From the NCBI RefSeq assembly GCF_000002075.1, contig NW_004798611.1, positions 40,175 to 104,174 on the forward strand: 64,000 nucleotides of DNA. Direction: 5' to 3'. Made by a program: the position numbers and the translations under genes. Of this stretch, positions 19,359-64,000 are shown one piece after another. The notes beneath the pieces are model-generated. The model searched no databases, was not told where the DNA came from, and was given only the letters and a program-made list of their open reading frames with translations. Source of the DNA: Aplysia californica. Its lineage: Eukaryota. Each line of letters begins with the position of its first letter. Positions within the stretch are counted from its first letter, which is position 1.

Positions 19359-19777
19359 TACAATAAGAACGTTTCTTAGAAAACAAGCTTTATTTTCATC
19401 AGAATATATATAATATTGATACTTCAGAGCACAAACGTGCATTGCGACATATTTTAGAACTTTCAAAAGTTTTAGGAGGCTGGCTGCATCGACCCTGGCT
19501 GACATGTGCCGGCCCTGACTGAGAGTGATACAATGTTGGTTTTTTCCTGATTGTTCGTCTACTCAGAGCATTATAAAAGACAAAAAGGTTTCTAATCCAG
19601 TTTTCTTTCAGAAAATATATAAAGATGACATTTTCAGTAGAAAGGGTAATCTTGCAGCTTCTAAGTCTCCCACTCCACCATGACATTTATTGTCAACAGT
19701 TGACCATCATAGAGTCATAGCCAGAGGTACAGGTAAGCAACCTGTGAAATAAAATAAGACTCCTGAAGCCGCCTCCT

Positions 19778-30927: not shown

Positions 30928-33562
30928 TCAGTACTGCTGGTCGTCCGACGCCCTCTTCTGTTTCTTGATCTCTTTCCTTGTGTTCTCAAGCTCGTCGGGG
31001 TCTCTGTCGGGCAAGATCTCGCTGATGACTCCGTACCCTAAGGTCGTGTGACCGTCTCGCACGGTGAACCGCTGGTTCTTCTCCATGACCATCTTCTTGA
31101 ACATGTTGAACACAAGCTTGCCGTCCTCCCCGGGCATCAACAGATCTTTGTCCGGGATCTCCAGCAGCGCAGGCTGGTTCCACGTGTTGCAGAACGTGAT
31201 GACCTGGGAGAAAGGGGTCACAGGTTTGTTCCGGCCTCCCTCATCCTGGGTGGGAAAAGAACAGAAGAAACAACCAAAATTCATTCAAGTGAGGATACCT
31301 TGGCAGCTCTCCGTTTTATATTGCAACATGCTACAATAAATGAATTTGTGAAGATAAAGGTGGATTTGAGTAAAGATTGTAGACCTTGACAACTCTCCAA
31401 CTCTTCATTCGAGAGTCAGTGCAAAATTGCTCAATTCAGCAGGTGTAGAATCTACTCTTCAGGTTTGATGAGAAAGAAAGATCAGATACCAAGCCTCACA
31501 TAATTTTTCGTTGTCATGAAACAACACTTGCAAAGCTGACAACATTTTGAAACTGAAATAACCCCAAAAAAAACAATAACAAGTAGCGAAAACTATTTTT
31601 CCAACTCAAACAGATGCCTCAGCCACAGAAAATGAGGTTCACAGGAGGTTGCAGCTGACTGATTACCTAATGACAGTCCACACCAGCATTAAGTTCAGGA
31701 ACAAAAGCAAATAAAACTAAACATGAAATTCATTCTAAATCATAGCTGCACATTACAAATATTATTTTTTTATATATATATATGTTTTAAGTTTTTAAAA
31801 TAAAAATGGGGACGTTCTCAAATGACAGATGGCTGAGTTTCTCAATATCCAGCATAAATAACTGTCATAACAAAGCCCAATCTCATCACAGACACACAGG
31901 AAGTGTGCGAGACAGCCCAATGGGGATACCGGGTACTTAGTTTTGAACACATGTCGTATGACGTGTATTGACGACAGTGGGACAGGCTACTGTACAATGA
32001 GCAAACCCCTCTGGTTTATGAGGACTTTTTAAAATTATCACAAAGAGGTACAAGAGGGAAACATACTATAAAATGCAACATAACATTATCTTTTTAAATC
32101 CAAGGTTACCATGGTAGCAGCGGCCATATTGAAAAGAAACAGCTTTCTTTAACTCTCTTTCAATACCGCAAGCACTGTTGCACGCCTCTCCACTTTCTGC
32201 TTCAAAAGTGGAGACGAAAGCAGACAACAAGCAAAGTGGCACAGAAGGACAACTAGAGTTCAGGGCCAAAAGGATGTTAATGTTAAACAGCTGAATGTGA
32301 TGTAGTGACGCAGACTTTCCGGGAGGTAGTTTTATCCCCTTGGAAGGTTGGGGCAGTGGGCTGGGGTAGCCAAAATTTTAAATATCGGAATCAGAGATTA
32401 CGATCATATTTTCATAAAGCTGAATAAAAATCGTAACGATTCCGTCGAATTCGTAATGATACAAACTTACCTTTGAGAGGAGATATATCTGTGCCTCGAA
32501 CCGATTGTGCATCTTCATTGTTCCAGGTTTGCCCATGCATAGGCCACGACGCATTTCGTCTCTTTTCACGCCACGAATTAAGGCTCCGAGCTGATCGCCT
32601 GCCTCTCCTCTATCCAGACTTTTCTTGAACATCTCAATGCCAGTCACATTTGTTTTCCATTTCCTGTCATAGCCCATGATTTCACACTCATCCCCTTTCT
32701 TAACTACACCTCTTTCAACTTTGCCAGAGATGACTGTGCCTCTGCCAGGTATGCTGAAGCAACTGTCAATGGGCATGAAAAAAGGTTTGTCCAGGTCTCT
32801 CACAGGAGATTCAATGTAATTGTCAACTGCATCCAACAATTCTTTCACTTTCTGTTCACCAATCTCTGGGTCAGTCTCTTCAAGAGCCTTCAGTGCCGAT
32901 CCTATTATGATAGGCGTTTCATCTCCATCGAAGCCGAACTCTGTCAAAAGCTCCCTGACTTCCATTTCCACTAACTCTTGCATTTCTGTATCAGCAGCAT
33001 CTGCTTTGTTAACAAAAACCACAAGTCTTTTCAAACCAATCTGCTTGGACAGCAAAAGATGTTCTCTTGTCTGGGGCATGGTACCATCAGTGGCAGCTAC
33101 TACTAATATAGCACCATCCATTTGAGTAGTTCCCGTAATCATGTTTTTGATGTAATCTGCATGGCCTGGACAGTCAACATGCCCATAATGCCTTGTCTCT
33201 GTCTCGTACTCCACTGTAGCAGCATTGATGGTGATGCCTCTTTTTCTCTCCTCAGGGGCATTATCAATATCAGCGTATTCCTTGAACGACGCTTTGTCCT
33301 GTCCCGAAAGCACCTTTGTGATTGCAGCAGTTAAAGTTGTTTTCCCATGGTCCACATGACCTATCGTACCGATGTTCAAATGCGGCTTCTCACGCGAAAA
33401 CGACTTCTTCCCTGCTGCCGGAGGGGCTGCAAGTAGTCTAGTAGAGATTGAAAAGTACCTTCCCTGAGATGCAACAATTTGCTTTGCACATTTTAGCAAA
33501 AAGGGGGATTTTGTTGACATTTTCGAGGTCTCCAGGAAAGGTCGAATGATGAGCGCTGCCAT
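30928..33562 (-). CDS. TUFM: Mitochondrial elongation factor Tu, 469 aa; complement(join(30928..31245,32471..33562))
   Basis: [22 protein letters not shown] and GSAL GTPase motifs. Basic/Ser-rich N-terminal presequence. Domain III motifs EGGR, MPGED and RFTVRDG in exon 2. Donor AAG|GTAAGT at 32470, acceptor CAG|GAT at 31246. Confidence 0.96.
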
Positions 33563-34039
33563 CTTGAAACATGTGTTGTGAAACTTTGCCAGGTAAATTG
33601 TTGCATAATGTAGGGCTAGATCAGGTAGAGCTTTTCCACATTATATAATAACAAAATTTTATACAAATTTACAAGTTTCTAGAAATTATCTGTTTTTAAT
33701 AGTATTTTACAAGTCCCTCCAGATCTTCAAATCCAAATAAAAACATTTTTTTCAAAATATCTTATTTTTAGATTAAAGTGAACTGGTGTATCAACTCGGC
33801 AATATAATGTCAAGGAAGTAAATGCTCGCAGTAAAAAGATGTTTTTAATTTATTTTTTGTATTATGCTTGTAATTTTGATCCTCTGTAACGCAAAAACTC
33901 AAAATTTTTAATTTGCCATATAATATCTAATGTTTTGAATTTTCATGAAACCTCAAAATACCTGATACCGGAAGTGTGATTCACCCCTGCACTAAGTTGT
34001 CCACTAAGTTGTCATGGCACCGTTTATTCATGGTGGTTC
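33563..34039. promoter_or_regulatory. Bidirectional promoter TUFM / LRGUK with ETS site and RFX X-box
   Basis: Divergent ATGs 477 bp apart. ACCGGAAGTG at 33967-33976, X-box-like GTTGTCATGGCACC at 34008-34021, and a YY1-like AAGATGGCAG over the TUFM ATG. Confidence 0.7.
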
Positions 34040-37000
34040 ATGATGGACCCAAGACTTAACTCGCCGTATACGGAGGAAAACTATGCTCAAATGGATTCGG
34101 AGGCTGCCTTGATGGATCCAGAAACTGATATTCTTAAACTTGATGATGATGTCGGGGAATTACAAAACGATGAGATATTAGACACTGAGAAGCCTGATTT
34201 ACCGAAGGACGATGCTGTTGATGGTGGAGAAGAGGAGGCAGACGATGAGGGTGTTGAGGTTGTTGTTGTTTTGTTTTTTGTTTTATTTCTTTTTGTGTTT
34301 TTTAATGCATTTTCCCCTTCCTTGACTGAATGCTGTTTTATTGCTTTTTGTACAGAATAGAAGTGAATACAACTCATGTATGCACTATTATGAAGTGTAT
34401 ACTATAGATCTAGTATTAAAACTTAAAATACTTATATATTAATATACGTGTGTCAATGTCNNNNNNNNNNNNNNNNNNNNNNNNNNNNNNNNNNNNNNNN
34501 NNNNNNNNNNNNNNNNNNNNNNNNNNNNNNNNNNNNNNNNNNNNNNNNNNNNNNNNNNNNNNNNNNNNNNNNNNNNNNNNNNNNNNNNNNNNNNNNNNNN
34601 NNNNNNNNNNNNNNNNNNNNNNNNNNNNNNNNNNNNNNNNNNNNNNNNNNNNNNNNNNNNNNNNNNNNNNNNNNNNNNNNNNNNNNNNNNNNNNNNNNNN
34701 NNNNNNNNNNNNNNNNNNNNNNNNNNNNNNNNNNNNNNNNNNNNNNNNNNNNNNNNNNNNNNNNNNNNNNNNNNNNNNNNCCTGCCCATATCTTTATAGG
34801 TTTACTTCATGAAGCTTGGAACCTAATGTTAGTTATAGCAATATGGGAATGATATTCATCTAGATTACTTAAGTAAAAATAATTTCCTACAAAACAAAAG
34901 TGAAAGTGCATCTTCCTTTAGACAAGGTACACACATTGCAAGTTATTTGTTAAACGTTCTGTGTTTCATTTTTCAGCTTTCACCTGATGGGGTTCTGGAC
35001 GAAGAGACAGTTGCAAGAGGTCTGTCAAATCTTGGGAGATCTGCTACTGGCGACGGTCAAGTTTATCTCAATGTCACAATTCCGGTAGGTTATTTTGATG
35101 TATTTTCCCAGGGAGCCAAAGAAAAGTATCATGTAATGCTTTGATGACTTGGTGGCTTGAAGAGGAAGGGGGTCGGCACTTTGTAAAGCAATGAAAATAT
35201 TATTTTTGCTGGTTTTGCTGAAATGGAGGTGCACTACTTTTTTTTTTAGAGCTAGCGATAGTTTGTTGTATTATAAACTCTCAGTACTTAACTCTCTTAA
35301 CTGCTGAGTATTTTTGTTTACCTATTTCAACTGTGAATCAATTATTGGAATATTCTCATGAAAATTGAGAATTTTGATTATCAGTGTTGTGAAATAACGT
35401 ATGATGTATTTAGTTATTATCTGTAGTTTTTCCAGAGTGACCACTTTTCACTCTCTCCCTTCCCCCCCCCCCCCCCCCTCCCCCTCCCAAAAAAAGAAGA
35501 AAAAACAAACAAACCCAAAAACAAAGCAAACAAACAAAAACCAAGATTGGCGCTTATGAAAGAAAACTAACGGAAATTTGTTTGATATACAAAATAATTT
35601 AAAACTTTAAAAAAAGAGATGATTCAAGTTCAACAGATAACAACTACAAGACATCAGGGTAAGTCTCTGATTTATACTGGCACAATGATTCTCTTTGCTT
35701 TCAGGGATTTTCCTTGACAGACATCAGCCTGATTGCAGAGTACGAGCACCTCCAGAAAGTTGAGATCCCGTACAATGATATCACAGGCAAGATGCTTTTT
35801 TGTGGAAATGTTTTCTTGTAATAACATTTTGGGTTTGAATTGTTACTTTTTTACTTTTTCTGTGATATTTTTGAAGTATGATGGTTGTAAAATATCAAAA
35901 AATGGTGGTGTATTGTTTTTTAAATACATCTCGGTAAAGATCAAAAAGAAAAAAGCAGTGAAAATTTTAAAAAGTGTACTCAGCAAATACAACGCTGGGT
36001 TAATAGATGTTTTTATAGAATAGAACTTTTTAAAAAAAATCTTTTTGTAATGTTTAAAGGTAGCTAATAATTAAGTGGGGTTTTCATTTGCTTGAAATTA
36101 TGTCAACGAGAAAACAGACTTAATTTGTTTGCAAAATTTAGCTGTACCTCTACATCTCTATGCTTTAATGTTTTTCTGCATCTTTTACATTGATGAACTA
36201 CTCTATGATCGCTTTGAAATATTTGAGTTATGACTTTTTTTCCTTTGGTTCCGTGAACAGATTTGTCTCCTCTCGGGAAACTGAAGTTTCTTCTCGTCCT
36301 GGATGCTTCCCACAACAGAATTCCCACTCTCTTGGACTTTGAGCCACCGGCAAATCTACAAACGGTTGATTTGTCATGGAACAAAATTGAAGAAATGCGC
36401 GACCTATCAGCTCACCGAAACTTAGAGAAGCTGGTTCTTGACAGTATCCTTTATGCTGCTACTTTTTGTCTGTGTTCTGTTTGCTTTGGAAAAATTAAGG
36501 ACTGAAACTTTATAGGCTACTTATTGTAAATATCAAACTGGCAAAATTAGTGGTATTGAGAAGCAAGTATTATGGCCTTTTAAAGAGGGCACTGATATTT
36601 AGAAATGATGTATTAAAATCACTGAAATTGATGAAAATATTTCGTTGTTTGAATCTCTATGTCTAGAAAGGTATGATTTCAAAGCATGTTGACATTTTTT
36701 CATCTCCGTTTGGCTTAGACTCTTTGAGGTTTTCGGGTTTTTATCGATATATACTGTCCCGTTTCTTTTGTAGTGAATGTGTTGAGTTCATTTGATCTTT
36801 TTTCTCTGATTGTTCCTTTTCTTTGATATTGACAAACAGCAATGTTTTTTGGAATGTTTTTTGTCAGCAAAGACTTATAACTTTTGAATTGAATTTGTAA
36901 ACTACTAAAAAGTATTGCTTTCCTCAACTGAATAAAGACAACACAATTCCAGCAGTTCAAGGATTAGAAAAATGCAAGAGATTAAAACATCTGAGCATTT

Positions 37001-40000
37001 CACACAACAAGATCAAGAAAATACAGAATTTGAATGATTTGCCCATACAGCATTTGAATCTGGTAAGTTAAATTGTAAGGTCCCTTTAATAAAAATGAAT
37101 CATGGAAGAGCTACGGGGCCAGATAATATTACAGTTGAAATGAATGTCACATTAGAAGAATTGGGTACCGACAAAGCTCTGAAATAATAGCCTATCTACG
37201 ACAGTGGTGAAATTCCAGAAGACGTGGTTAAATTTTTCTTTATGCCTTTACCCAAGTCATGAAGTGCCACAGATATATTTAAATGATCTTATAGGAGTAT
37301 GAATAATGGTCATAGTGGATGTGAGAAGAGAATGGGTGAGTTAAATTGAGTGGCTACTGATCTGTCTGAAACTGAGTTTTGGCTTACACTTACTTTAGAA
37401 AGTTGTGCACATAACTGGCATTACGTCGTAAACATCTACAAGGTAAATATTAAGAGCTAGTATATGTTACCATCCTTATGGTTACAGATGACAGACTGAT
37501 TTTGAGCAATTTTGTGAATGTTGAAATGCTGAGCACCTTGTGTTGTTTCCTACACCTTACATTGTCAAATCGTCTTTGTCTACCTCCTCAGAGCAACAAT
37601 GAGATCAGAATGATCGAAAACTTGGAGACCTTGAAGTACCTGCGGGTAAGACAAATCTCTTTTCATTTCTGAAAGGGTCACGTGCATAAATCGTTATGTG
37701 ACTTGAAATCATATAACTTTTTATCATTGAAATGGTTACCTTTTTTTTAAACTGAGCTGCTTCTGCAATTTCCTGGTCTTTGTTGTTAATTTTGTGGCTG
37801 AATTATGTCCACAAGTAACTGTGGCTGAATTATGTCCACAAGTAATTGTGGCTGAATTATGTCCACAAGTAATTGTGGCTGAATTATGTCCACAAGTAAT
37901 TGTGCACAAATCAATTTCTCTCTTAACTGTTTTTGTTTCGTTGTTGTGCTGTTGTAGGGAAAAACAAAGAGCGTATGTCTTCACAAACACAGCTCAGCTG
38001 TTTCCACAACAAGAAATCCATAAACTTGCCCTCAGTGGACTGATAATTCTGTGTGGATAGTTCAAGCCCACCTTGTCCCTGTAAAAACAAAATTTAGAAA
38101 TGTTCATAACTTTCATGAAAGGTGCAGCAAAAATTGTAAACAAATTAACTTAATCTGTTTTTTCATAGCTATAATTATCTCTGTAATGTGTCGATTCTTT
38201 TCTTGTCCAGGAAGTGAACCTGTCTGGCAACACCATCAGGAGCTTGTCTGGCCTAGACCACAACGTTCTACTGGAATCTGTCGATGTGGAAGACAACGAG
38301 GTTGGCAGCTTTGTAGATTGAAGATAGTTTCTTATTCTCTCTGCTGTTGTTTCTGCAGTGGTAGTTTCCAATTACAGAATACCGGCGTTCATTTAGATGT
38401 TGTCTGTAAGTTTGGAATGATGCTGTTGGAAACTTTAAATCGTAAGAGTTTGGGATTTTTTTTATTGTTAACTGTCAGCTGTGTGATTTGTCGTTCTCTA
38501 AGTGAGGACCTTTATGTTTGTTTGAAGAGAAGACACGAGGCTGAATAACTGCTGCTGCGGTACAACTTGAGCACCTCTTTATACCATGACAGAGAGAAAG
38601 TTCCTCTTTAATATAATTTTTTTTGGTGGATTTGTTCATGAATCATTTTTAGAAAACACAAAGTAAGAAAGCTGCAGACAGAATTTGCTTGACTAGAATT
38701 CTGTGGGACTTTCCAAATCTGTTTGAGTTGATGATCGGTTTGTTTTAGAACAGATATAACAGATAACGGGGACAAAAGACTTGAGAAACAGGAATAATGA
38801 TAGAATTAAGATATCCAACTTTTGCATAGCTTGGAAATGGAGCTGGGAAGTTTGTTGAAATAAAGAATGAAAGTATTTATGTTGTCAATGATATTTTGAA
38901 ATTTCTTTTTTTTTCAGTTGGGGGTTGGGGATTCTGGAGGGTTTTGTTGTTAATGATAGCTAATAATGTAATTTTTTTTAATTCTAGAGGGTTTTGTAGT
39001 ATGAGAGCTAATGTTACTTTAAAAAGCTCTTGAAAATACTTATTTGCTCAGAGGAGATTCTGGCCTCGCTGTCACAGGAAAATAGAATACAAAAGGAAAA
39101 TGGCGGCTCACATCTTTGAAGAGGCGGGGATGAGTCTCTTGCACATTTACTGTGTGTTATGTTTCTACTTTTCTGATGCTTTTCTCTTCCAGGTCATCGA
39201 CATTGTGGAGATCAACCACATCAAGAATGCGAGGAACTTGCGAGACCTGAACTTACTGAGGAATCCGATCCAAGAACTGCCAGACTACAGACTATCCATC
39301 TTGTTCCGGATCAGTCGTCTCACCACGCTGGACAGACACCACGTGAAGGAGCAGGAGAAGGTTGGTTCATTTACATCACAGTCGACATCTTACAAGGTGT
39401 CATTATAATATGTTATATCGCAGTCGAAGTTGTCAGACGGCCGCCCGTTGTCAAGGAGAAATATGGCCGTCTTTGGCAGGTGGACCTCTTACACAGTGTC
39501 ATTGTAATGTGGAGAAATAGGAAGTGGCTGCTTGGAGAGATGTTTGTCTTATACAGGTGGCTGTTAGAGTAGGTCCGGGTGTATTTCAAATGGCAATAGA
39601 CAGTCAGAATAAATGTTTAAAAACGTTGACATGTATGAATGGCTTACCCTTGTTACCGTGCAAGTAATTAAATCATGACTGTAATTCCTGCAGGTGGTTC
39701 CTGCATTATATGCTCGCTTCTAAGGCCAAGCGGGCCAAACCAGATGTCGGAAGTTTCCAGAAATCTTGACCTACACCAAAAGTGGGTATTGCCCTACCTA
39801 AAGAAGAAGTTTGGTTTCATTGGTGTGTGTATTTGTTTGGTTATAGAGAAAACTCTCCTTATCCTTTAAAAAAACTGAATAAGAGTCCAAAAACTTTAAC
39901 CTTGATGTTCTAAGTGACCATATGTGACTCCTTGAGTGGACTCTGAGTTTACGAATTTTTAATTTTCGATTCAACAGGTTGCGGCCATCAATATGTTCGA

Positions 40001-43000
40001 CCCACCACGAGAAGTTGTAGCGTCCCGGGACCACATCATGCACGTCGTCTACTCGTTCCTGCAGCCGTCCAGGGTCTGGGACAGGTAGAAACTTTGGTTT
40101 ACGCCTCCATCCACACAACTTTAGGTCGTTTAGGAGACGTGCTGCCTCAGCCCGCCATCAGGGCCAACCCTAACTGAGGGACATACAACATTTCGGCAGA
40201 AAAACGAAGATACTCAATTGAAGAAACTTACCCGCTCGAGAATCGAACTCCTGTCTTGTGCGTGCAACAATAGTGGCCTAACCTCTACTCCAGAGACACG
40301 GGTCCATCTATAATTCCACGGCTAAATGACTTGGACAGTCAAGACTGGCCTCACAGTTCTCTCATTCAGAAGTCAAAACTCTGGCTTCTTATTCTTGATA
40401 GAAAGAAATTAAAGAAAGAAAATTATGTGCATTTTTGTAGGAACATATTATGTTTATAGTTTGTATAGTTTGATATACATTCCTGCTGACATTTAATTCC
40501 GTCTCTGAGAAAGTAGTTCAGTCTCGTTGTGCAGTGACGGGCGCTGGTTCTGCTTCTCCCTCATTTCTTTGTCTCAGGACTTTTCTCCCCTTCTCTTTTG
40601 GATGTTTGGTTTTAAAAGTGGCAGATTTTGCTGTTGTTTCCCTCTGTTGTGTCTGTCTTTCTGTCTTGCTTTTTCCCTGCACTGAGTGACCTATATTGAG
40701 TTGATGTGCTTTTCTTTACTGGTTAAAAAAAAAGAAATTAAAGCAGATGGGATGCTAGATTTATAGCTGCTGTCTGTTGTTGTGTATTCTACTTGCGAAC
40801 AGTCCAAGAACACCAACAACATTAAACATTACTAAATGAAACAACTTCTCGGGTTGTGTTCCAGAGTTTAATATAAGACTTAAACTTTACAAGACAGTGG
40901 CTTGTGCTGCCGTAGGCTAGACATCTTTGTTCTTGTCTGTCTGTTTATGTGTGTGTGTGTGTGTTACTCTTTTCTTGCTCTCAACGATACCGATATACTG
41001 ACCATTACAGTACTTGTTATGGAATACTGAAAGTGGGTACTTATAATGTTACATTATGATTACTCTACAACATCTGTATTTGCTGTCTGAGAAGCGGTGC
41101 ATCAGCTAGATCTATGTTTTCCTCCGTGTTTCAGTACGCTGCCCAACATCGAGACTCCCTATCCCATGTTGGTGCTGGTTGGGCCTCAAGGATCGGGGAA
41201 GAAAGATCTGTCGATGAAGCTCGTGGATGAGTTTGGAGATTACTTTGGCTATGGGTATGTGACAATGCATGGATAGATCATAGAATAATTGTTATACGTA
41301 CAAATAAAAGGGCCTTTCTTCGTATGTCACACGTCACTAAGCACACTTTTGATTTACCTCTATGTAAACGAAGATATTTGCCTTATTACTAATTTTAAGT
41401 TATCTCTCTAAAGATGCGTAAAACATGTTCCAATAAAGTATTATAAAAGGATGTTTAATGTCTTTTTTTATTTTTTGAAGTGTTTCATTTTGACAAACAT
41501 TATTTGGCACCTTCTGACCTCTGCTCATGTGACAAGAGTGTTATATGTAGGCCTATATATTGTAACAGACGTATGAAGAGGATACGTCTCAGACTCAATG
41601 CAATATATATCTGGTCCCTTAGAATTTTGGGAGATGAAAGGAATAGCAAGCTGCATTGTGCTGTTTCATACTGATATTACTAGGCTAGCGCAACTGTGTG
41701 AAAGATTGAAATTCCAATATATATATTTTCTGGTAAGTGGACTCGTGACTGTTATAACAAAAATTATGTGTTTGTATTTTAGAGAATCAGTTTAGAATTA
41801 TTTCCGTCTGTGAAATCACTGCTCTGATATATCTCAGTCTCATGGTTATGTATTTTGTACGAGGAAAGAATTTGTCACTCGTTGGATATAAGCAAATATG
41901 ATCTGAATATCACTGGGTTTTTAAAAAAATATTTTGAACATTTTAGAGATTTGGTATATCTCGCACAGAGCCTGTTTATGATACCTCCTTTTTTGTAGGT
42001 GCCGTTCAGTTCCAAAATATTATTATGTGTTGAGTGACCTCACTTCAATTATCGTGGCATCTCTTATAAAACTGATACAACCAGTGGAGAAACATACTTT
42101 TTGTAGTCTGCATTGTTACTCTATTTACGGTAGAGGGTTTTACGGCTCTCACAACTGCATAAGGTCATATGAGCGCCAAGGGGTGGGTGTCAACAGAGAA
42201 GTCCTTACAGGGAATCAGGCTTATTCTGCTCACCTCTCTAGCTTCAACAGCACAAGGTCTGCTTCGACTATCAAGGCACCCCGGAAATAGCGGTTCACAA
42301 GAGAGTGACAAACATACAAAAGAAGTAGAGGAAAATGACAATAGTAAGGATTAGGAAAGAAAAAGCAGCAGTTCCCTGTTGTAGTTCAGGCACAGTTATG
42401 AGCGTGACATTTTTAGATGAGCCCATTTACAATTCTACTGTTTTTGAACGAGAAATGTCCCCCCTTTGGGAATGGCCTAAAGACACTACAGTCAGTGGCA
42501 CTGCCCTGGGGGGCAGTTGTTACTCTATGATTTACCATGGTTTTGCTACATTTTTCCGGCAGTATTTCCCACACTACCAGGCAACCTCGTTCAGATGAAG
42601 TGGCAGGCAAGGATTACTACTTTGCATCGCTTGAAAAATTTGAGATGGATATCAAAATGGTAATTTACAAAGTCTTATCTTTTGTGGTGCTTAAAATGAT
42701 AGTCAAGAGAAAATGTATCTAGAAAAATATGTAAAGATAAGTTTTGAAGATCTGCAAATATTTCTTTCTCTGAAATCAGAATCGAAGTTTCAATTTAACT
42801 TTCAGTATCTGTTTTATGACTTTAGTTTTCTTTTCTGCTGTAAAAGTAGAGATGGTTGTACAGGTTTATTCATGTCTCTCAAAAAACTGTCAGAGCAGTT
42901 GTTTCAGGAAAGATTTTGGTCCAACTTGTGTATCGTTCTTCAAATGCTTCAAGGCATTTAAAAGACTTTTAAAATGAAATAAAACATTTTGTTTTGTGAC

Positions 43001-46000
43001 AATTGTTTGTGTAGGGCCAGTTTATCCAGACATATCAGTGTGACAATTGTTTGTGTAGGGCCAGTTTATCTAGACATATCAGTGTGACAATTGTTTGTGT
43101 AGGGCCAGTTTATCCAGACATATCAGTGTGACAATTGTTTGTGTAGGGCCAGTTTATCTAGACATATCAGTGTGACAATTGTTTGTGTAGGGCCAGTTTA
43201 TCCAGACATATCAGTGTGACAATTGTTTGTGTAGGGCCAGTTTATCCAGACATATCAGTACTGTGACAACTGGTACGGACTGCAGATGGAATCTGTGGAG
43301 AACGTCGCCCGAGAGGGATTGGCCTGTGTGGTTCACATGGAGCTGGAGGTAAACCTTTTCCTCTTTTTGCTTTTTCTCTTTTTGGGGTTTTATTTTCTTT
43401 CTGCTTTTTTGTTCTTTTCTCTTTCTACTTTTGGGGAAAATTTTCTAATTCTCTGGTTTCTCCTGTTTTGTTTTAGATTTTTGTGGTTCTTAATGAATAA
43501 ATATAAAGTTTTTTTGGTCTATTTTTCTATTACAAATGCGGTGGCCATTTTTCCAATGTTCAAGGAAGGGACAGACCAAACATTTCATGACAGAATATCT
43601 CTCTCTTTGTTTTGTTTTTTCTGTAGTTTCTGCATTTTAAAATGTACTTGTTCTTCATGTTTCCCTCTGATTAGACAAGGGGATAAGAATATGTCTTTTA
43701 AATCACATTCTCAATGACTCACTGCTTAAAATGGTCTTTTTAAAAAATCTGTGAAGTCAAGATATTGTCAGAGTACGTCATTTACCATCGAAAAAGACGT
43801 TCAGGGAAAAGTAACCTTTCCTTGTTGACTCTCCAGGGAGTGCTGACCTTGAAGAACACATACTTCGAGCCCCGCTACGTACTGGTCATGCCTCTCAACG
43901 CGGAGGACCATGAACGACGACTCCGAGAACGTGGGATCTACACGGAGGACCAGATCCAGAAAACTCTGAAGAGATCGGACATGTACGTCAAGCAGAATCA
44001 GGACCACCCTGGCTTCTTTGACATGATGATCTGCAGTGGTGAGTCTCTCGTTGAATTCAGGAGTACTTTTTATGTGGACATTTTTGTATGACTTTTTGAC
44101 TTGTGCTTCCCTTTTCAGCACAATTTAAGTTATTCAAAAGATTGGGGGGTGGGGGGTGGAGAGAGGACAGGATTTTCAAGGTAATGCCCATCTCAGATTA
44201 GATGGATGTGAAGCCTTAAGACTCTCCAAAGGTTCCCCCCCCCCCTCTCTGTTGTGTCCTTGGGAAAGGCACCCCACGAATTTTCCTCACTTCACCCAGG
44301 TGGGAATGGGTACCCGGCCATAGACAGCGAAAGACTTGTCAGTATGTTAGGGTTTTAGCGCCTATAAATGGCCGCTTGCACTGTATGCTTCCCAGGAAGC
44401 TGAGGTTGTTTCAGAATGCTCTCAGGTCTGCTGGGGTAATAGTGTAGATTGTGAAGCGCATAGAGCTTGCTTTTGAGCGGGGATGAGAGCTATACAAATG
44501 CTATCTATAATTGTCAAAACACATAGAGCTTGCTGTTGAATGGGGATTTGCACTATACAAATTCTATCTATGATTATTACTTCCCTACAGATGACATCAC
44601 AGAAGCCTACAAACAGATGCGGCGGCTGGTGATGGATTACCTGGGCATCAGCACCACCACGCCCGTGAGCACGGCCGCCCCCTACACCATCACAGACACA
44701 AGGGAGGTCACCGACGCCTTCCAGGGCTTCACCGGCGCGGCCTCGTCCAATCAGATGGGAGCCCGGACCTGGTCCAAGCCCAGCATTCCGGACAGCATGT
44801 CTCAGACGAGAGGGCCCAGGGTCAGCTCAGGGGCACCAGTCAGCCGAGGCATCGTTGTGAGTTTTGTTGGTTGAGCAGTAGGATCATGATCTTGTTTGTT
44901 GTTTGTTGTTTTGTTGTGTGAGCAGCCTTGTCCAGTGTGACATAATGAGAAACTGACTGGTGTTTCGTTCATCTCGAGCCCTCACTGTTTCACTTCCTTT
45001 ACTATGTTGTCTGTATTTCATTTTCAACATGTTACATTTAATAATAATAATAATAAATGACATTTATATAGCGCCCAACCCTGATTAAAGTACACAGGAT
45101 CTGGGCGCTTTACAATACAGTACAACGTACAACAGTAACTTAAAACGTTGTGGTCTGACTAAAAGAAGATCACTCCAAACATTCATCTTATTAATTTAAA
45201 TTCAGAAATGATTTCAGCTGGCATTTGAATGAATCAAAAGATTTGATCTCTCTTAAAGTATTTGGCCAAGCATTCCAGATCTTGGGGCCTTGATTTCCCA
45301 AACTTACACTGTCAAACCTGCTCTCACAGCCACCTGTCCAGGATACTCACCTGTACCAACAACCACTTCCAACGCCCCAATCTCCCGAGTTTCCCTATTT
45401 TTTCTCAGTTTTGACTGCCAGCCATGAGAAATAGTTTTTGAGCCAAAGTTCAGATAACATGTCAAGGGAAGCAACCAAAACAATTCAAATATGTAAAAAC
45501 AGTCAACAAAGTTATTTTCCTTTTCCCCCCCGGCAATTTGAGACCTGGAATTTTAAAACACATCTATCAATTGTCAAACCAGGCTGGGAAAGGTGTAAGG
45601 CTGCCACTGCCAAACAGCTTTCACAAGCAGCTTCCTATGGAAAGTCATGGATTCTTGTAAATAGTATATATATAGAATCTGCAACAAGTATGTGTATATA
45701 TGTGTCGAGACATGGTGGAATCAGGCGCATGTCAATTTTTGAGCGTGTGGAGTTATTGGTATCATCTGAGAGCTCAATCGTTTGTCTTGCTTTCAGTGAA
45801 AAAATATCCATCTAGTTTGAATAGAGGTCGAGATATTTGCCATTTAAGAAGGTGGGTAGTCTGGTTTCAGTGATTAAATTAATGAGAAAATGGCCGCTAA
45901 AGTTTGGTAACTTCAATAACTTAGGAGTCCGTGAAAATTGAAAATTACTTATTTTGTGCCATTAAACAAGGTTTTTCAGTAAAATTTCACGTCAAAATGT

Positions 46001-49000
46001 GTTGTCGTATGAACATAAAAGGTGTTTAGCCAAAAACAAAAATTTCTATAAAAATTGCCAAACTTGTGAGAAAATGCCTTTTTTCTTCAATTTCGTTATT
46101 TTGACGAGCGCCTGATTCCACCGCGATGCTTCACATGTTATAAAGAAGTGTTTAAAAGCAGAGATTTCCTTTGTATAACCTTGTGGCCCCGACCATCCTA
46201 TTTCTTGTTGCTGAGAAATGAGACACTTGCCAGTAGGCCTACATTGTACTTTTACAACCTATGGGATTATAACCGTAAAAATCAACTGCTATGTTTAACC
46301 CATTGGTACGTAGTGTTGATAATTCAGCTGAAATCTTAGAGGATGGATCTAGAGATTTAGATAATGCTAGCTGGGCCCCCTTTCGATGAAAGGAATGATC
46401 GGTGCATTAACATCAACTGAAAGTCATTGGCCTACTATATTACACTCTACTGGAATGGAGAAATAAATCTTGAGAGATGCAAAAATTAGAAGGCCTTGAT
46501 CTAGATCTATACTCTCAAAACAAAATGCGCCTTGCAAAATATCACTTCCACACCGGATTTTCTAAAATTGCATAGACAGAAGCGTCAGCCTACAAAAGCG
46601 ATCGGCGAAATAAAGAAATTTAGCTTCTTTTTTTTTTTAGCAAAACTCTTTCAAAACTGAAAAAACAAAGGGCATCATGATCAGGAGAATATTTTAAGGA
46701 ATCTTTTGGCGAAAACCGCATGTCGATCGATGCAGCCATTAAAAAGCCTTTTGAATAGCAACATTCAGCCACCACAAATAGATAATAGATTGGTGATTAG
46801 AATTTAATGCACTATAATATCCTTTTAAAAATTTTTTTGGTGTATTATCTGCGAAACGGCGCGATTTTGAAATCTGCCTATTTTTTTTCATTTCTCCCTA
46901 AAAATGTTGGCTCATCTCCCTCCAATCTCTCCTGGCAGGTGGCCATCTCTGTATTGAGTTGACTTACAACAGGGTCTTCAATTTTCATATCCACTCTCAT
47001 GATTGTAAACACATTGCATACATCAATGATCATCTTTTGTTTTTAAAACAACAAATTACTCTTCTTATATCTATTTGTGGTGGCCGAATGTTGCTATTCA
47101 AAAGGCTTTTTAATGGCTGCATCGATCGACATGCGGTTTTCATGAAAAGATTCTTTAAAATATTCTTTAAAATATATATAATTTCTTTATTTCGCCGATC
47201 GCTTTTGTAGGCCGACGCTTTTGTCCTTGTAATTTTAGAAAACCCGGGAGTGACATTTCGTGAGGCGCATTTTGTTTTGAGAGTATAGATCTAGACCTTC
47301 TAATTTTTTGCATCTCTCAAAAGTTATTGCCCCATTTCAGTAGAGTGTAGGCCTAAATATAGTACGTAGGCCAATTACTTTTAGTTGATATTAAAGCACT
47401 GATCATTCCTTTCATCGAAAGGGCCCCAGCTAGGCCACGCATATATATGTGCAACATGTAAACACCAAATTTATTTCCCATGTATTATTATGATATGTGC
47501 AGTATGTGAACACCAAATTCATTTCTCACAAATAGTCATGATACGTGCTGCGTGTATTTTGTGCATATATTTTGTGCGTGTACGTGATGACAGTTTTCTT
47601 TTCCCTCCTTCCAGGAAGAGGAGTCCATCAAACGTCGGCACAGCGCGGCCAGGGAAGTTGTCAGCGGCTACGTGCCGCCACTGTACGAGCAGCTGTTGAC
47701 AAAGTAAGTCTACGTATTCTGTACGTTCATAGAAAGAAAATAAAAAAGCAAAGATCTCTTTTATTCTTCCTTGTGGAAATTTAGTTTACACAGTGCATGA
47801 GTATTTTCTTACACAGTGCATGAGTATTTTCTTACACAGTGCATGAGTATTTTCTTACACAGTGCATGAGTATTTTCTTACACAGTGCATGAGTATTTTC
47901 AAAGCTGACAGAACCACACAAAACAGAAAAGTCCCAGCTGACACAGATATGCCTGTACCTTTGCTTGTCACGGTCGTACAGTGGGCCTATGCAGTACTCA
48001 GTCTTGAGCTACAGATAACTTGTCTTGCCAAAGAATGCACTGAACTGATTATCTGTGTAATATCCAGTGCATATTGGAGACAGTTTCTTTCAAATCTCCA
48101 TTTGAATCAGTAGTGTTCAATATGAGCCCACGACTTGGCAAATATTAGCAATGAAGATTACCGAGATAGCCTGTGTATACTTGTTCCGCGCTATTTACCG
48201 ATCGATGCAATCTTAAGATTGCCCTGCGCGGTTTAACGATTGTATAATTGTATCATTCTTGTGAGCTCTGAAGTTTCATATGTTAATTTTAATTTTAATT
48301 TTCATATATTTACTTTTTTGAAAATATATGTGAATGTTTTTTTTTTATTTAAGTAAAAGAATAAAGATGGAAGTGAATTTTTTTTAAAAGTATTTTTGAA
48401 ATATCAAATAAATTAAATGTACTTTTGAACTTTGAGTTTGATACTTGGCGTTGTATCATTCTTGTGAGCTCTTCAGTTTCATAGGTTAATTTTAATTTTT
48501 ATGTGAATGTTCCTTGATGTGAGTAAAAGAATAAAAATGAAAGTGAATAATATTTAAAAATGATTTCAAAAATATGAAATATTAACGCAATCTTCAGATT
48601 GCCACGCAATTTTACGATCGGTGACTAGCGCGGAACATTCTCATATATTTGATGTTGACAGGCTCTGATAAATGGATCTGAACTGGTGTGTGATATGCTT
48701 TTGCATTACGCTGAACTGATGTATGATTTTCACAACAAAGGCACATCAAAGTTATCTTTTGTAGTATGCTGGACTGATGTATATTTCTAGCAACAAAAGC
48801 TCATCAAAGTAATCCTGCCGTCCCCCCTCCCCCCCCCCCAGCTACCCTAAGACAGCCCCTCAGACAGTGGAGGGTCAACTAGGCCTGGGAGAGAACGGCG
48901 AGCCGCGCGCCTACTCCGCCCCCATCAACCCGGCCGAACCAGGAGTGGACCTTGGGGAGGCGGGGCCTCCAGCGTCCCCCGATTCCTCCTCCAGTCAGAC

Positions 49001-49274
49001 CAGCTCCAGCTCCAACCTGTCCGACCTTGACTCGGCCACGGAGCTCCAGCGGGGCAGGGATGGCAAACACAACACCAACTCTAAGGGACTGCTGCCCACG
49101 GAGAAGGTGAACCCGCTGGCCCTGATAGACGAGCAGGGCTACCGCTCCGCGTCCAACACGCAACTGCCTCCTGCCCGCCCCCCGTCTGCCCCAAGACCGG
49201 ACTCGAAGACCGGCGTGATCAGACCGGGCTCCAACCGCCACGTAGTGCTGCCTCCTATACAGAACGTTGCGTGA
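34040..49274 (+). CDS. LRGUK: Leucine-rich repeat and guanylate kinase domain-containing protein, ~818 aa; join(34040..34258,34977..35084,35705..35786,36261..36443,36938..37062,37592..37645,38211..38300,39193..39360,39978..40084,41135..41254,42563..42659,43235..43348,43837..44038,44591..44856,47615..47703,48842..49274)
   Basis: SDS22-like LRRs ([35 protein letters not shown]), then an LRR cap ([24 protein letters not shown]), then a guanylate-kinase domain ([30 protein letters not shown]). All 16 exons are phase-compatible (2457 nt). The exon 1 donor is weak and an N gap lies in intron 1. Confidence 0.92.
34461..34780. other. Assembly gap in LRGUK intron 1 (other gaps: 19931-20471, 24768-24867)
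   Basis: Run of N. Confidence 1.
35787..36260 (+). other. GC-AG intron, LRGUK intron 3
   Basis: Donor CAG|GCAAGA gives the phase-1 junction [13 protein letters not shown], which keeps LRR spacing. No comparably good phase-1 GT donor lies nearby. Confidence 0.8.
36444..36937 (+). other. U12-type (minor spliceosome) GT-AG intron, LRGUK intron 4
   Basis: 5' end GTATCCTTT. Branch site TTTCCTCAAC at 36919-36928, ~10 nt before the AG at 36936-36937. No polypyrimidine tract. Splicing restores the LRR reading LVLDNNTI. Confidence 0.9.
37090..37272 (+). mobile_element. Degenerate RTE-like LINE reverse transcriptase fragment
   Basis: Encodes [25 protein letters not shown] / [16 protein letters not shown] with stops and frameshifts. 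Confidence 0.7.
37792..37903 (+). repeat. 27-bp tandem repeat (TGTGGCTGAATTATGTCCACAAGTAAT) x4
   Basis: Direct repeats in LRGUK intron 6. Confidence 0.95.
40158..40300 (-). mobile_element. tRNA-derived SINE, family copy 4
   Basis: Reverse strand reads GTGTCTCTGGAGTAGAGGTTAGG...GAGTTCGATTCTCG...ATTGAGTATCT...GGGTTGGCCCTGA. Confidence 0.7.
42995..43258 (+). repeat. 44-bp tandem repeat x6 spanning the LRGUK intron 11 / exon 12 junction
   Basis: Unit TGTGACAATTGTTTGTGTAG|GGCCAGTTTATCYAGACATATCAG. Confidence 0.97.
44248..44510 (+). mobile_element. CORE-like SINE body with L2-type tail
   Basis: GTTGTGTCCTTGGGAAAGGCAC...CACCCAGGTG..AATGGGTACC core and tail TGTGAAGCGCATAGAG...GCTATACAAATG. A similar tail lies at 24989-25050. 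Confidence 0.6.
45040..45290 (-). mobile_element. L2/CR1-group LINE 3' end
   Basis: Reverse strand encodes [29 protein letters not shown], then TGTAAAGCGC...GCGCTATATAAATG and a (TTA)n tail. Confidence 0.7.
45700..46136. mobile_element. MITE with imperfect ~35-bp TIRs (ATGTG...GGTGGAATCAGGCGC..GTCAA), full copy
   Basis: Left arm CATGGTGGAATCAGGCGCATGTCAA; right arm TTGACGAGCGCCTGATTCCACC...CACAT. Homologous to 26292-26658 and 6230-6340. Confidence 0.75.
46367..47433. mobile_element. Long inverted repeat / foldback element in LRGUK intron 14
   Basis: ~46367-46784 is the reverse complement (with indels) of ~47068-47433, with a ~280-bp spacer. Confidence 0.85.
47787..47899 (+). repeat. 23-bp tandem repeat (TACACAGTGCATGAGTATTTTCT) x5
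   Basis: Direct repeats in LRGUK intron 15. Confidence 0.95.
48182..48637. mobile_element. MITE-like element with short TIRs and an internal direct duplication
   Basis: TGTTCCGCGCTA..ACCGATCG at the left end and CGATCGGT..TAGCGCGGAACA at the right. TTGTATCATTCTTGTGAGCTCT... is repeated at ~48248 and ~48451. Confidence 0.65.
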
Positions 49275-50416: not shown

Positions 50417-51230
50417 CCCAGTAGCTGTATAGATTTTTTCTAGATCTACTTTCCAACCGTCTCCAGTAGCTGTATTTTGTTGTCTATTTTCCAACCGTGT
50501 TCGCGCATTGTACTTTATTTTCTATTTTTCAACCGTCTCCACTAGCTGTATTTTATTTTTTAATTATCTGGAGACAGATTTTAAATAGAAAAAAAAATAC
50601 AGCTAGTGGAAACAGTTGGAAAATAGAAAATAAAATACAGCTACTGGAAACAGTTGGAAAGTATTCTTTAAAATGCAGCAAGTGGAGATGATTGGAAAAT
50701 ATTAAAAAGAATACAACTAACTGATTTGAGAAGAAAATAGAACTAGAATACAGTTACGGGAGACGGTCATGAACATAGGAAATACAACTTGTGAAGAATA
50801 AAATATAGCTACTGGAGACGGTCGGAAAATTGTTTTTTGTAACAGGAGCACGAGACGAGTGGAAAATAGAAAATAAAATACAGATAGTGGAGACAGTTGA
50901 AAAAAAGAAAAAAAATTACAGCTGTTGGAGACTGTTAAAAAATAGAAAATAAAATACAGTTACTGGAGACAGTTGGAAAATAAAAAATCAAATACAGTTA
51001 CAAGTGACGGTAAAAAATAGAAAAGAAAATACAGGTAGTGAAGACAGTTGCCACTAAAGATGGTTCAAAAATAAAAATTATAATACAGCTAGTGGAAACG
51101 GAAAATATTCTTTAAACCTCAGCTAGTGGAGACAGTTGGAAAATATTTTTAAAAATACAACTACTGGAGACGGTTGAAAAATTAAAAATAAGATACAGCT
51201 AGGGGAAAATGTTTTAAAATTTCAGCTACT
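50417..51230. repeat. Satellite C, ~38-40-bp unit AAAATACAGCTACTGGAGACGGTTGGAAAATAG, with the first units inverted
   Basis: 50417-50560 carries CTCCAGTAGCTGTATTTT / TTTTCCAACCGT. From ~50570 the reverse-complement unit repeats. Confidence 0.85.
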
Positions 51231-54200
51231 GGGGATGAGCTAGAAAATATTACGGATGAAGTAAAAAATACGAAAGATGAGCTAGAAAATATTGTGCATG
51301 AGCTAAAAAAAATACTTGAGATGAGTTAGAAAATATTACAGACGAGCTAGAAAATACTGGGAATGAGCTAGAAAATATTACGGATGAAATAGAAAATACG
51401 AGATATGGTCTAGAAAAGATTATGCTTAAGTTATAAAATACTGGGGATAAGTTAGAAATATTATGGATGAACTAGAAAATACTGGGAATGAGCTAGAAAA
51501 TATTTGGGAGGTGCTACAAAATATTGGGTATGTGATAAAAATATTGGGGATCAGTTAGAGAATATAAAGGATTTAAAAATATTGGGAATAAGAATAAAAA
51601 AATCTCGTGGATGAGATACAGAAGTCCAGGAAATATTTGGAAGGAGCTTAAAGTACTGGGGATGAGCTTAAAAATATTATTGATCAGCTATGAATTATTG
51701 GGGATAAAGTAGAAAATGCTAAAAAATACTGGGGATGAGTTAGAAAATATTACGGATGAGCTACAAAAGTCCAGGAAAATATTTGGAAGGAGCTTAAAAT
51801 ACTGGGGATGATCTAAAAAATACTACGGTTGAGCTAGAAATTATTAGGGATAAAGCAGAAAATGCTAAAAAATACGGGGGATGAACTAGAAAATATTATG
51901 GATAACCTAAAAAATACTGAGGATGAGCTAGGAAATTTTACGGATGAGATAAAAATACTGGGGATGAGCTAGAAAATATTACGGATGAGCTAGAAAATAT
52001 TAGGAATGAGGTAGAAAATATTGTTTGAGGTGCTAAAAAATATTTAGGATGTGATAAAATGTAGTGGGGAAAAGCTGGAAAATATTAAAGATAAAAAAAA
52101 TAATTTTAATTGGGAATAAGATTTAAAAAATGTGGATGAGATACAAAAGTCCTGGAAATATTTGGGGTGAGCTAAAAATATTGGAAATGAGCTAGTAAAT
52201 ATAATGGATGAGCTACAAATTATTGGGGATGAAGTAGAAAATGCTAGAAAATACTGGGGATGAGCAAGAAAATATTACAGATGAGCTAGAAAATACTGGG
52301 GATGAGCTAGAAAATATTTGAGAAGGGCTGCAATATTGGGGATGTGGTAAAAAGTATTTGGGATGAGCTAGAAAATATAAGTGATCTAAAAATATTGGGA
52401 ATAAAATAAAATACTGTTTTGGATGAGATACTTTAAGTCCTGAAAACATTGGGCATGAGCTAAAAATTATTGATGATGAGCCGAAAAATACTGGTAGCTA
52501 AAAAATACTGGGATTGAGCTAGAAAATATTACAGATGAGCTAAAAAATAATGGGGATGAGCTAGAAAATATTACAGATGAAGTAGAAAATACGAAAGATG
52601 AGCTAGAAAATATTGTGCATGAGCTAAAAAATACTGGAGATGAGTTAGAAAATATTACAGCGACGAGCTAGAAATTTCGGGGAATGAGCTAGAAGATATT
52701 ACAGAAGAAATAGAAAATACGAGATATGAGCTAGAAAATATTACAGAAGAAATAGAAAATACGAGATATGAGCTAGAAAATACTGGGGATAAGTTAGACA
52801 ATATTATTGATGAACTAAAAAGTACTGGGAATGAGCTAAAAATATTTGGGAGGTGCTACAAAATGTTGGGTATGTGATAAAAATATTGGGGATCAGATAG
52901 AATATTTATATTATTAATGAATATTGGGAATAAGATTTTTTTTTGTTAATTGTGGATGAGATACAGAAGTCCAGGAATTATTTGGAAGGAGATAAAAGTA
53001 CTGGGGATGAGCTTTAAAATATTATTGATCAGCTACAAATGATTGGGGATGAAGTAGAAAATGCTAGAAAATACTGGGAGGTGCTAGAAAATATTACAGA
53101 CAAGCTAGAAAATACTGGGGATTAGCTAGAAAAAATATTACGGATGAGCTAGAAAATACTGGGAATGAGCAAGGATATATTACCGATAAGCTAGAAATTT
53201 TTGGGAACGAGCTAGAAAATATTTCGGATGAGTTAAAAAATACTGGGGATGAGTTAGAAAATACTGGGAATGGGCTAGAAAATATTTGGGAGGGGCTACA
53301 AAATATTGGGAATGTGATAAAAAGTATTTGGGATGAGCAAGGAAATATAAGGAATCTAAAAATATTGGGAATACGATAAAATAATTTTGTGGATGAGATG
53401 CAAAAGTCCTGGAAATATTTGAGATGAGCTAAAAATAGTGGGGGTTGAGCTAGAAAATATTACGCATAAGCTAGAAAATACTGGGGATGAACTAGAAAAT
53501 ATTACAGGTGAGCTAAGAAATACTGGGGATGAGCTAGAAAACATCACAGATGAGCTAGGAAATACTGGGGATGAGCTAAAACATATTTGGGAGGGGCTAC
53601 AAAATATTGGGGATGTGGTAAAAAGTATTTGAGATGAGCTAGAAAATATAAGAGATCTAAAAAATATTTAGGGTAAAATAAAATAATGTTTTGAATGGGA
53701 TACAGAAGTCCTGGAAACATTGGGCATGAGCTAAAAGTTATTGAAGATGAGCCGAAAAATACTGGAGATGAGCTAGAAAATGTTACGGATGAGCTAGAAA
53801 TTATTTTGGATAAAGTATAAAATACTTGATATAAGCTAAACAAATATCGGGGATGAGCTAGAAAATATTACGGATGAGCTAGCAATTATTAAGGATGAAG
53901 TAGAAAATGCTAAAATATACTGGGTATCAGCTTGAAAATATTACAGCTGAGCTAGAAAATACTGGGATTGAGCCTGTAAATATTACAGAAAAGCTAGATA
54001 ATAATGGGGATGAGCTAGAAAAAAATATACAGATGAGCTAAGAAATGAATGAGCTAGAAAATTTTTGGGAGGTGCTAGAAAATACTGGGAATGAGCTAGA
54101 AAATATTTGGGAGGTGGTACGAAAATATTTTGGATGTGATAAAACATATTGGCGATGAGCTAGAAACTATTAAGGATCTAAAAATATTGGGAATAACATT

Positions 54201-63200: not shown

Positions 63201-64000
63201 TATTGGAGATGAGCTAGAAAATATTAAGGATCTAGAAATAAATAATGTTGTGGATGAGATACAAAAATCCTGGATATATTTAGGATGAGTTAAACATACT
63301 GAAGTGAGCTAGAAAATAAGATGGATCAGCAAAAGGTTTTTATGGATGAAGTAGAAAATGATAGAACTTTTTCTGGATGAGCCAAAAAATATTACGATGA
63401 GCTAGAAAATACTAGGAATGAGCTAGAAAATATTACTGATGAGCTAGAAAATACTGTGAATGAGCTAGAAAATATTTGGGAGGTGCTACGAAGCATTTTG
63501 GATGAGATAAAAAATATTGGCGATGAGCTAGACATTATTAAGGATCAAAACATATTGGGAGTTAATGTTGTGGATGAGATACAAAAGTCCAGGAAATATT
63601 GGGGATGTACCCAAAAATACTGGAGATGGGCTAGAAAATATAACGGATGAGCTAGAATTACTACGGAAGATGTAAAAAATACTGGAGATGAACTAGAAAA
63701 TACTGGGGATGAGTTTAAAAAATATTACAAATGTGATAGAAAATACTTGGAAGGAGCTAGAAAATATTTGGGAGGTGCTACAAAATATTGGGGATGAGCT
63801 AGAAAATATTAAGGATCTAAAAATATTGGGAAAAAGATTTAAAAAATAACGTTGCTGATGAGATTTCCAAAGTCCTGGAAATATTTGGGAAGCACTATAA
63901 AAATACTGTTGATGAGTTACAAAATATTACGGATGAGCTAGAAACTATTAGGGATGAAGTAGAAAATACTGGAGATGAGCTAGAATATACTGGGGATGAA
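51228..64000 (+). repeat. Satellite B, 21-bp unit GATGAGCTAGAAAATACTGGG with higher-order structure
   Basis: Continuous array to the end of the window, with a recurrent landmark GATGAGATACAAAAGTCCTGGA. Confidence 0.97.

What the first reader, a model, noticed from the sequence alone, without database searches (positions are those of the whole stretch)
42995..43258. Six tandem copies of a splice acceptor plus exon start in LRGUK; only the last is productive
Seen: a 44-bp unit made of 20 nt of intron end and the first 24 nt of exon 12 (GQFIQTYQ) is repeated six times, giving exon starts at 43015, 43059, 43103, 43147, 43191 and 43235. Copies 2 and 4 carry a C>T change giving an in-frame TAG, so there is an 88-bp higher-order pattern. 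Because 44 is not a multiple of 3, starts 1, 2, 4 and 5 are out of frame with the downstream exon, and start 3 hits a TGA. The TGTGACAA microhomology between the intron and 43262 explains the duplication. Inference: the spliceosome must skip five identical AGs, so copy number could tune LRGUK output through NMD or make a hypomorphic allele.
Basis: partly seen in the sequence, partly recalled or inferred. Interest (0 to 1): 0.7.

Follow-up and report, generated by a model that had tools for sequence, protein, structure and literature searches.

The report
Six-copy splice-acceptor "mirage" in sea-hare LRGUK
In a sea-hare cilia and sperm-tail gene, the end of an intron and the start of the next exon are repeated six times; the repeat is seen in DNA from several samples, every assembled transcript examined splices to the last copy, and it is likely a tolerated repeat of a kind already known from lancelets rather than a dial on gene output.

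Summary
The array is real: 6 x 44 bp at 42995-43258, each unit 20 nt of intron 11 plus 24 nt of exon 12 of LRGUK (model identical to the Aplysia californica protein). It is not an assembly artefact: a repeat loop shows in 3 of 4 runs laid (X9 has no cover), and depth suggests about 8 units or more rather than the 6 assembled (rough). In 3 of 4 RNA runs (two studies; the fourth has no exon reads) one unbroken contig joins 42659 to 43235 and nothing else. All 20 upstream AGs in the array give premature stops, whatever the copy number. The microhomology would give a 47-bp unit, not 44. This is a 'mirage' minisatellite as described in amphioxus, and works like human CBS 844ins68. The scan has noted the same kind on other DNA, this genome included, and another animal's LRGUK has a donor-side array on the same exon. 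Tuning by copy number is unsupported but not excluded: contigs hide rare or degraded forms, and no animal has both DNA and RNA here. Ordinary; low interest.

The parts
42563..42659 (+). LRGUK exon 11 (guanylate kinase domain); GT donor at 42660
   Evidence: Pfam Guanylate_kin positions 29-64; exon model equals P0001; RNA joint from here
42660..43234 (+). Intron 11 as spliced (575 nt; 355 nt without the five extra units)
42995..43258 (+). Tandem array, 6 x 44 bp (20 nt intron end + 24 nt exon start); 'mirage' minisatellite
   Evidence: loop contigs in X1, X5, X10
42995..43038 (+). Copy 1: keeps the native upstream intron context (AG-free zone 48 nt, pyrimidines 0.59); use would shift the frame, stop after 489 aa; not seen in RNA
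43039..43214 (+). Copies 2-5; C>T at 43071 and 43159 in the assembly; all acceptors lead to premature stops (455, 489, 455, 506 aa)
43215..43234 (+). Intron part of copy 6: the acceptor that is used (TAG 43232-43234); branch-like TGAC with A at -16; AG-free zone 18 nt, pyrimidines 0.50; holds TGA and TAG in the coding frame
   Evidence: the branch point is inferred
43235..43348 (+). LRGUK exon 12, 114 nt, same length and boundaries as in three other animals' loci
43262..43272 (+). Exonic 11-mer matching the unit start in 10 of 11 bases, 3 nt out of register with the array end
   Evidence: 1 such match in 126,991 background positions
34040..49274 (+). Whole LRGUK coding region, 16 exons, 818 aa, intact; single locus for 42500-43400 in G000

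Best explanation
A 44-bp piece across the intron 11/exon 12 boundary of sea-hare LRGUK is repeated head to tail, the assembled transcripts splice to the last copy, and the other copies are likely removed with the intron as tolerated repeat DNA. Shown: array, frames, stops, the joint used, presence in more than one sample. Inferred: (a) origin by slippage helped by the 10/11-nt match, plus loss of 3 nt, then growth by unequal exchange (88-bp C/T dimer); (b) the last site likely wins because only it is followed by the whole 114-nt exon and the nearest donor (exon definition), not because it is stronger; (c) any leak to upstream AGs would carry a premature stop at least 547 nt before the last junction and likely be removed by NMD, so selection sees little.
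For: RNA: 3 of 4 runs (X17, X19 study P4; X18 study P5) give one contig of 2.4-2.5 kb with the single joint 42659-43235, GT..AG, and zero depth on 42662-43201; X24 has no exon reads. The NCBI-named protein uses copy 6. DNA: loop contigs at 5.5-5.7 times flank depth in X1 (may be the assembly's own source), 7.3 times in X5 (other study, two substitutions against the window), a loop in X10; X9 no cover. The used acceptor has the lowest pyrimidine share (0.50) and shortest AG-free zone (18 nt) of the gene's 15 acceptors, below copy 1 (0.59, 48 nt), so site strength does not explain the choice; no unusual RNA fold (z 0.34). Young 20-100 bp arrays are common: 11 in 167,839 bases of 20 sampled stretches, 12 in this window. 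Same anatomy and normal splicing reported for amphioxus BflGb6, 6 and 3 units (PMC3087553, passages) and distal-site use for CBS 844ins68 (PMC2630376, PMC1334203, passages).
Against: No animal has both DNA and RNA here, so the RNA could come from alleles with fewer units. Contigs drop rare forms and NMD would deplete the wrong ones, so leak is not measured. The tool warns that contig depth is no copy number; my estimate assumes the T path was dropped or absent. Copy 1 looks the better acceptor and a first-AG scanning model would pick it. NMD and exon definition were not tested in this animal.
Confidence: 0.8

Rival explanations
1. Copy-number rheostat: more units send more transcripts to upstream acceptors, NMD removes them, and LRGUK dose in cilia or sperm varies with allele length.
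For: All 20 upstream AGs give premature stops 547-832 nt before the last junction. Copy 1 has the better intron context. X1 and X5 differ in loop depth, 5.6 against 7.3. Repeat length does affect splicing at many human loci (PMC10078293, passages). Traces of a second, nuclear transcript are reported for CBS 844ins68 (PMC1334203).
Against: No upstream joint or array cover in 3 of 3 informative RNA runs, the deepest at 184. The depth difference can be 8 units in both animals with different C/T content, so variable number is not shown. Nothing in the array looks selected: the units are near-identical and young, and absent from three other animals' loci.
Confidence: 0.1
2. The multi-copy allele is a null or strong hypomorph (first acceptor used), and the normal transcripts come from single-copy alleles in other animals or on the other chromosome.
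For: mRNA from copy 6 and from a single-copy allele are the same sequence. A 1/12 heterozygote gives a loop depth near 5.9. Copy 1 has the native context.
Against: The loop is in 3 of 3 samples with cover, from 2011, 2015 and 2022. The ratio of the two X1 loop contigs (1.02) is about 3 SD from the 1/12 model (1.18 +/- 0.06). The rest of the gene is intact over 818 aa, and loss of LRGUK is reported to impair male fertility in mouse and man (titles and abstract starts).
Confidence: 0.07
3. Assembly artefact: the genome holds one copy.
For: The exact count and the C/T pattern are not reproduced by the contigs.
Against: Contigs that cross the unit-to-unit junction exist in X1, X5 and X10; with one copy their expected depth is 0.
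Confidence: 0.02

Closest known systems
Amphioxus 'mirage' minisatellites (Adh3; globins BflGb6, BflGb9) - PMC3087553, passages read
   Same: Tandem copies of an intron 3' end plus exon 5' start; BflGb6 has 6 and 3 units on two haplotypes; Adh3 units are 10-72 bp; RT-PCR suggests normal splicing.
   Different: Here a gastropod; units 98% alike with an 88-bp dimer pattern; length variation suggested, not shown.
Human CBS 844ins68 - PMC2630376 and PMC1334203, passages read; the primary papers were not held
   Same: Duplicated intron/exon junction; the distal site is strongly favoured and normal mRNA results, with traces of another transcript.
   Different: One extra copy of 68 bp, not five of 44; there it also removes a missense change; mechanism studied, here inferred.
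Human F7 IVS7 37-bp VNTR - PMC1557585, abstract and Discussion read
   Same: Five to nine identical splice sites in a boundary-spanning VNTR; only the one next to the intact exon is used.
   Different: Donor side, the mirror case; tested with 50 constructs.
Intron gain by tandem duplication - PMC3265369, first quarter of the text read
   Same: A duplication whose extra sequence is spliced out, leaving the protein unchanged.
   Different: No new intron here: the intron position is shared with three other animals' loci; the old intron only grew by 220 nt.

Membership tests
Mirage minisatellite | Head-to-tail repeats whose unit spans an exon-intron boundary | tested here: met
Mirage minisatellite | Extra copies keep the splice dinucleotide | tested here: met
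   TAG before all six exon starts
Mirage minisatellite | Regular splicing is kept; the copy next to the intact exon is used | tested here: met
   3 of 3 informative RNA runs, contig level only
Mirage minisatellite | Length instability between haplotypes | tested here: inconclusive
   Loop depth 5.6 (X1) against 7.3 (X5) fits different numbers or the same number with different C/T content
Splicing-regulating tandem repeat (spl-TR / rheostat) | Splicing or mRNA level tracks repeat number across individuals | not testable with these tools
   No paired DNA and raw RNA; the one raw RNA run has no exon reads
Splicing-regulating tandem repeat (spl-TR / rheostat) | Alternative sites in the repeat are detectably used | tested here: not met
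   No upstream joint, no cover of 42662-43201 in three RNA contig sets; rare forms would be missed
Intron gain by tandem duplication | New intron position absent from orthologues | tested here: not met
   Same intron and 114-nt exon in L022, L023, L024
LRGUK | LRR region followed by guanylate kinase domain; orthology to named LRGUK proteins | tested here: met
   LRR_9 and Guanylate_kin on single exons; model identical to P0001, 54-79% to 21 relatives

The most novel reading that the evidence does not exclude
The array is a variable-length decoy field: the functional acceptor is the weakest of the gene and sits behind 20 poison AGs, so longer alleles leak more transcripts into NMD and set LRGUK dose, and hence cilia or sperm-tail quality, in wild sea hares; exon 12 may be a hot spot for such arrays, since another animal carries an independent one on its donor.
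Probability: 0.08. Interest if true: 0.55.

Novelty: new member of a known kind. Interest (0 to 1): 0.15.

Why it matters
Little by itself: it extends a described repeat class to a sea hare. Its use is as a natural test of acceptor choice: six identical sites, the best-looking one first, yet the last and weakest is the one found in mRNA, which favours exon-side recognition (or NMD clean-up) over first-AG scanning in a mollusc. If copy number did set LRGUK dose it would be a repeat-based fertility or cilia modifier, but nothing here shows that.

Tried and rejected
X24, the only raw RNA run: 3 partial reads on low-complexity intron, none on exons; no information. X9: no cover of the array. No holder is on record as RNA; X17-X19 were taken as RNA because their contigs skip introns at GT..AG. 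Search for a protein with the tail that copy-5 splicing would give: no candidate, weak evidence. RNA structure hiding the upstream sites: z 0.34, rejected. Plain microhomology duplication: predicts 47 bp, rejected as sole cause. Whether the 11-mer at the unit start is native intron or came from the exon: not settled, the three related loci are too distant. Second LRGUK locus or the unit elsewhere in G000: one match only. In-frame AGs at 43241, 43250, 43259 (loss of 2, 5, 8 aa) are not seen in RNA. Paper searches with no useful result; one search listed 11 papers holding 'mirage' and 'minisatellite', none on LRGUK or Aplysia by title; 15 of 166 LRGUK papers were listed, none on this repeat by title. 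I do not claim it is unpublished beyond these searches. No look-alike in the scan's notes by sequence. No supplements were opened; the BflGb6 unit alignment lies in one.

Full report
Observation. Each unit is 20 nt of intron ending in TAG plus the first 24 nt of an exon; copies 2 and 4 differ by one C>T that makes a TAG at the fifth codon. The stretch 42500-43400 has one match in G000. The flanking exons fall in order on Pfam Guanylate_kin (positions 29-64, 67-97, 102-163; the last two below the curated cut-off as single exons) with an LRR exon upstream. Exon 13 is identical to P0001, named LRGUK of Aplysia californica by its source, and a 16-exon model through the last copy translates exactly to its 818 residues.

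Frames. From the six starts to the donor after 43348 the exon would be 334, 290, 246, 202, 158 or 114 nt. Only starts 3 and 6 are in frame, and start 3 must read the intron part of the last unit, which holds TGA and TAG in that frame. This holds for any copy number, so no allele can give a second full-length protein from an upstream copy. The array has 24 AGs; all 20 upstream of 43235 give products of 453-506 aa with the stop 547-832 nt before the last junction, which would be NMD targets under the usual junction rule (general knowledge, not tested in this animal).

Is it real? Of 24 runs listed I laid 8. In the four laid for the DNA question, X1 has flank contigs at depth 15.7 and 16.5 and two loop contigs at 89.1 and 91.3; X5, from another study and with two substitutions against the window, has flanks 62.7 and 55 and a closed 74-nt loop at 432; X10 has a 74-nt loop at 4.2 without the left flank; X9 does not cover the array. 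X1 may be the assembly's own source and is not independent. A simulation of 31-mer depth gives, for X1, observed ratios 5.53 and 5.67 against 3.7/4.2 for the assembled pattern with the T path dropped, 5.0/6.0 for six C units, and 5.2/5.5 for eight units with alternating C/T; X5's 7.35 fits eight C units or about eleven alternating ones. So the array is real and the assembly may have lost an 88-bp dimer, but variable number is only suggested. The tool warns that contig depth is no copy number, the read length was assumed, and no T-bearing contig was listed for X1 or X5.

Which site is used? X17, X19 (one study) and X18 (another) each give one contig of 2.4-2.5 kb at depth 184, 60 and 15 that joins 42659 to 43235 and 43348 to 43837 at GT..AG, with zero depth from 42662 to 43201. 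An upstream acceptor would add 48-96 31-mers that the normal mRNA lacks, so a major alternative form should have shown; a minor one could have been dropped. X24, the only raw run, has no exon reads. The RNA animals are not genotyped, and mRNA from copy 6 equals mRNA from a single-copy allele; that the loop is in all three samples with cover makes this escape unlikely but not impossible.

Why the last? Not strength: the used site has the lowest pyrimidine share (0.50 over -25 to -4) and the shortest AG-free zone (18 nt) of the gene's 15 acceptors, while copy 1 keeps the native context (0.59; 48 nt). Not an unusual fold (z 0.34). Each unit holds a branch-like TGAC with A at -16, so each may be a minimal acceptor. 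The likely rule is exon-side: only copy 6 is followed by the whole exon and is nearest the next donor. That short exon stubs after duplicated acceptors shift use to the outer site is recalled from Reed and Maniatis 1986, which my searches did not retrieve. The alternative is that upstream use occurs and NMD hides it.

Origin. The exon has an 11-mer at 43262 matching the unit start in 10 of 11 bases; one such match occurs in 126,991 background positions, so it probably played a part. But slippage between the two would give a 47-bp unit; the unit is 44 and the actual junction shares one base. A further 3-nt loss before amplification is needed, or the intron's 11-mer is itself left from an older copy; no close outgroup was found. 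Young arrays are common in this genome: 11 in 167,839 non-N bases of 20 stretches (3 with four or more copies) and 12 in this window. With an assumed 100,000-200,000 acceptors, some 290-570 such arrays would straddle an acceptor without selection; the figure is crude.

Relatives. Three metagenome loci (L022 and L024 nearly the same; L023) share the intron position and the 114-nt exon and have no acceptor array. L023 has an independent array of 85 bp, about 2.9 copies up to the contig end, that repeats the end of the same exon and its donor.

Known systems. Tandem copies of intron-exon boundaries are described in amphioxus as 'mirages'; BflGb6 has the acceptor-side form with 6 and 3 units, and RT-PCR suggested normal splicing (PMC3087553, passages). 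Human CBS 844ins68 duplicates a junction and the distal site is strongly favoured, with traces of another transcript (PMC2630376, PMC1334203, passages). F7 IVS7 is the donor mirror (PMC1557585, abstract and Discussion). The name 'mirage' reached me through the scan's earlier notes, which list at least seven acceptor arrays in other genomes, and one search lists three duplicated-splice-site cases in this genome; these are unchecked AI notes, used as leads only. LRGUK's role in sperm tails is from titles and abstract starts.

Verdict. Observation confirmed; interpretation partly supported. A new member of a known kind, likely neutral (0.8). The rheostat reading keeps about 0.1 because leak and genotype could not be measured. 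Interest 0.15.

Noticed in passing
L023:4568-4811: In another animal's LRGUK an 85-bp unit (about the last 24 nt of the same exon 12 plus the donor and intron start) is repeated about 2.9 times up to the contig end: an independent donor-side mirage on the same exon.
   Followed up: partly
window 35787-36260: LRGUK intron 3 begins with GC (GC-AG intron) in the model that reproduces P0001.
   Followed up: no
window 32381-33640 (-) and about 30900-31280 (-): Mitochondrial EF-Tu-like gene (Pfam GTP_EFTU), most of it in one open frame, head to head with LRGUK; starts about 480 bp apart, possibly a shared promoter.
   Followed up: no
window 19777-27872 and 51227-63999: Two long, diverged 21-bp satellite fields with A/G strand bias, together about a third of the window.
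   Followed up: no
window 6351-50660: 12 young tandem arrays of 20-100 bp period in 63 kb, about three times the density of the 20 sampled stretches; two more lie in LRGUK introns (37792-37904, 47786-47900), away from splice sites.
   Followed up: partly
window 43021: In run X5 the left flank contig stops 3 bases short of the entry to the loop, and the loop is one closed contig, which may mean a variant in that animal's first unit.
   Followed up: no
window 43262-43264: The codon after the duplicated part gives Cys here; none of the 21 aligned relatives has Cys there, most have Asn. It lies in the 11-mer that matches the unit start.
   Followed up: partly
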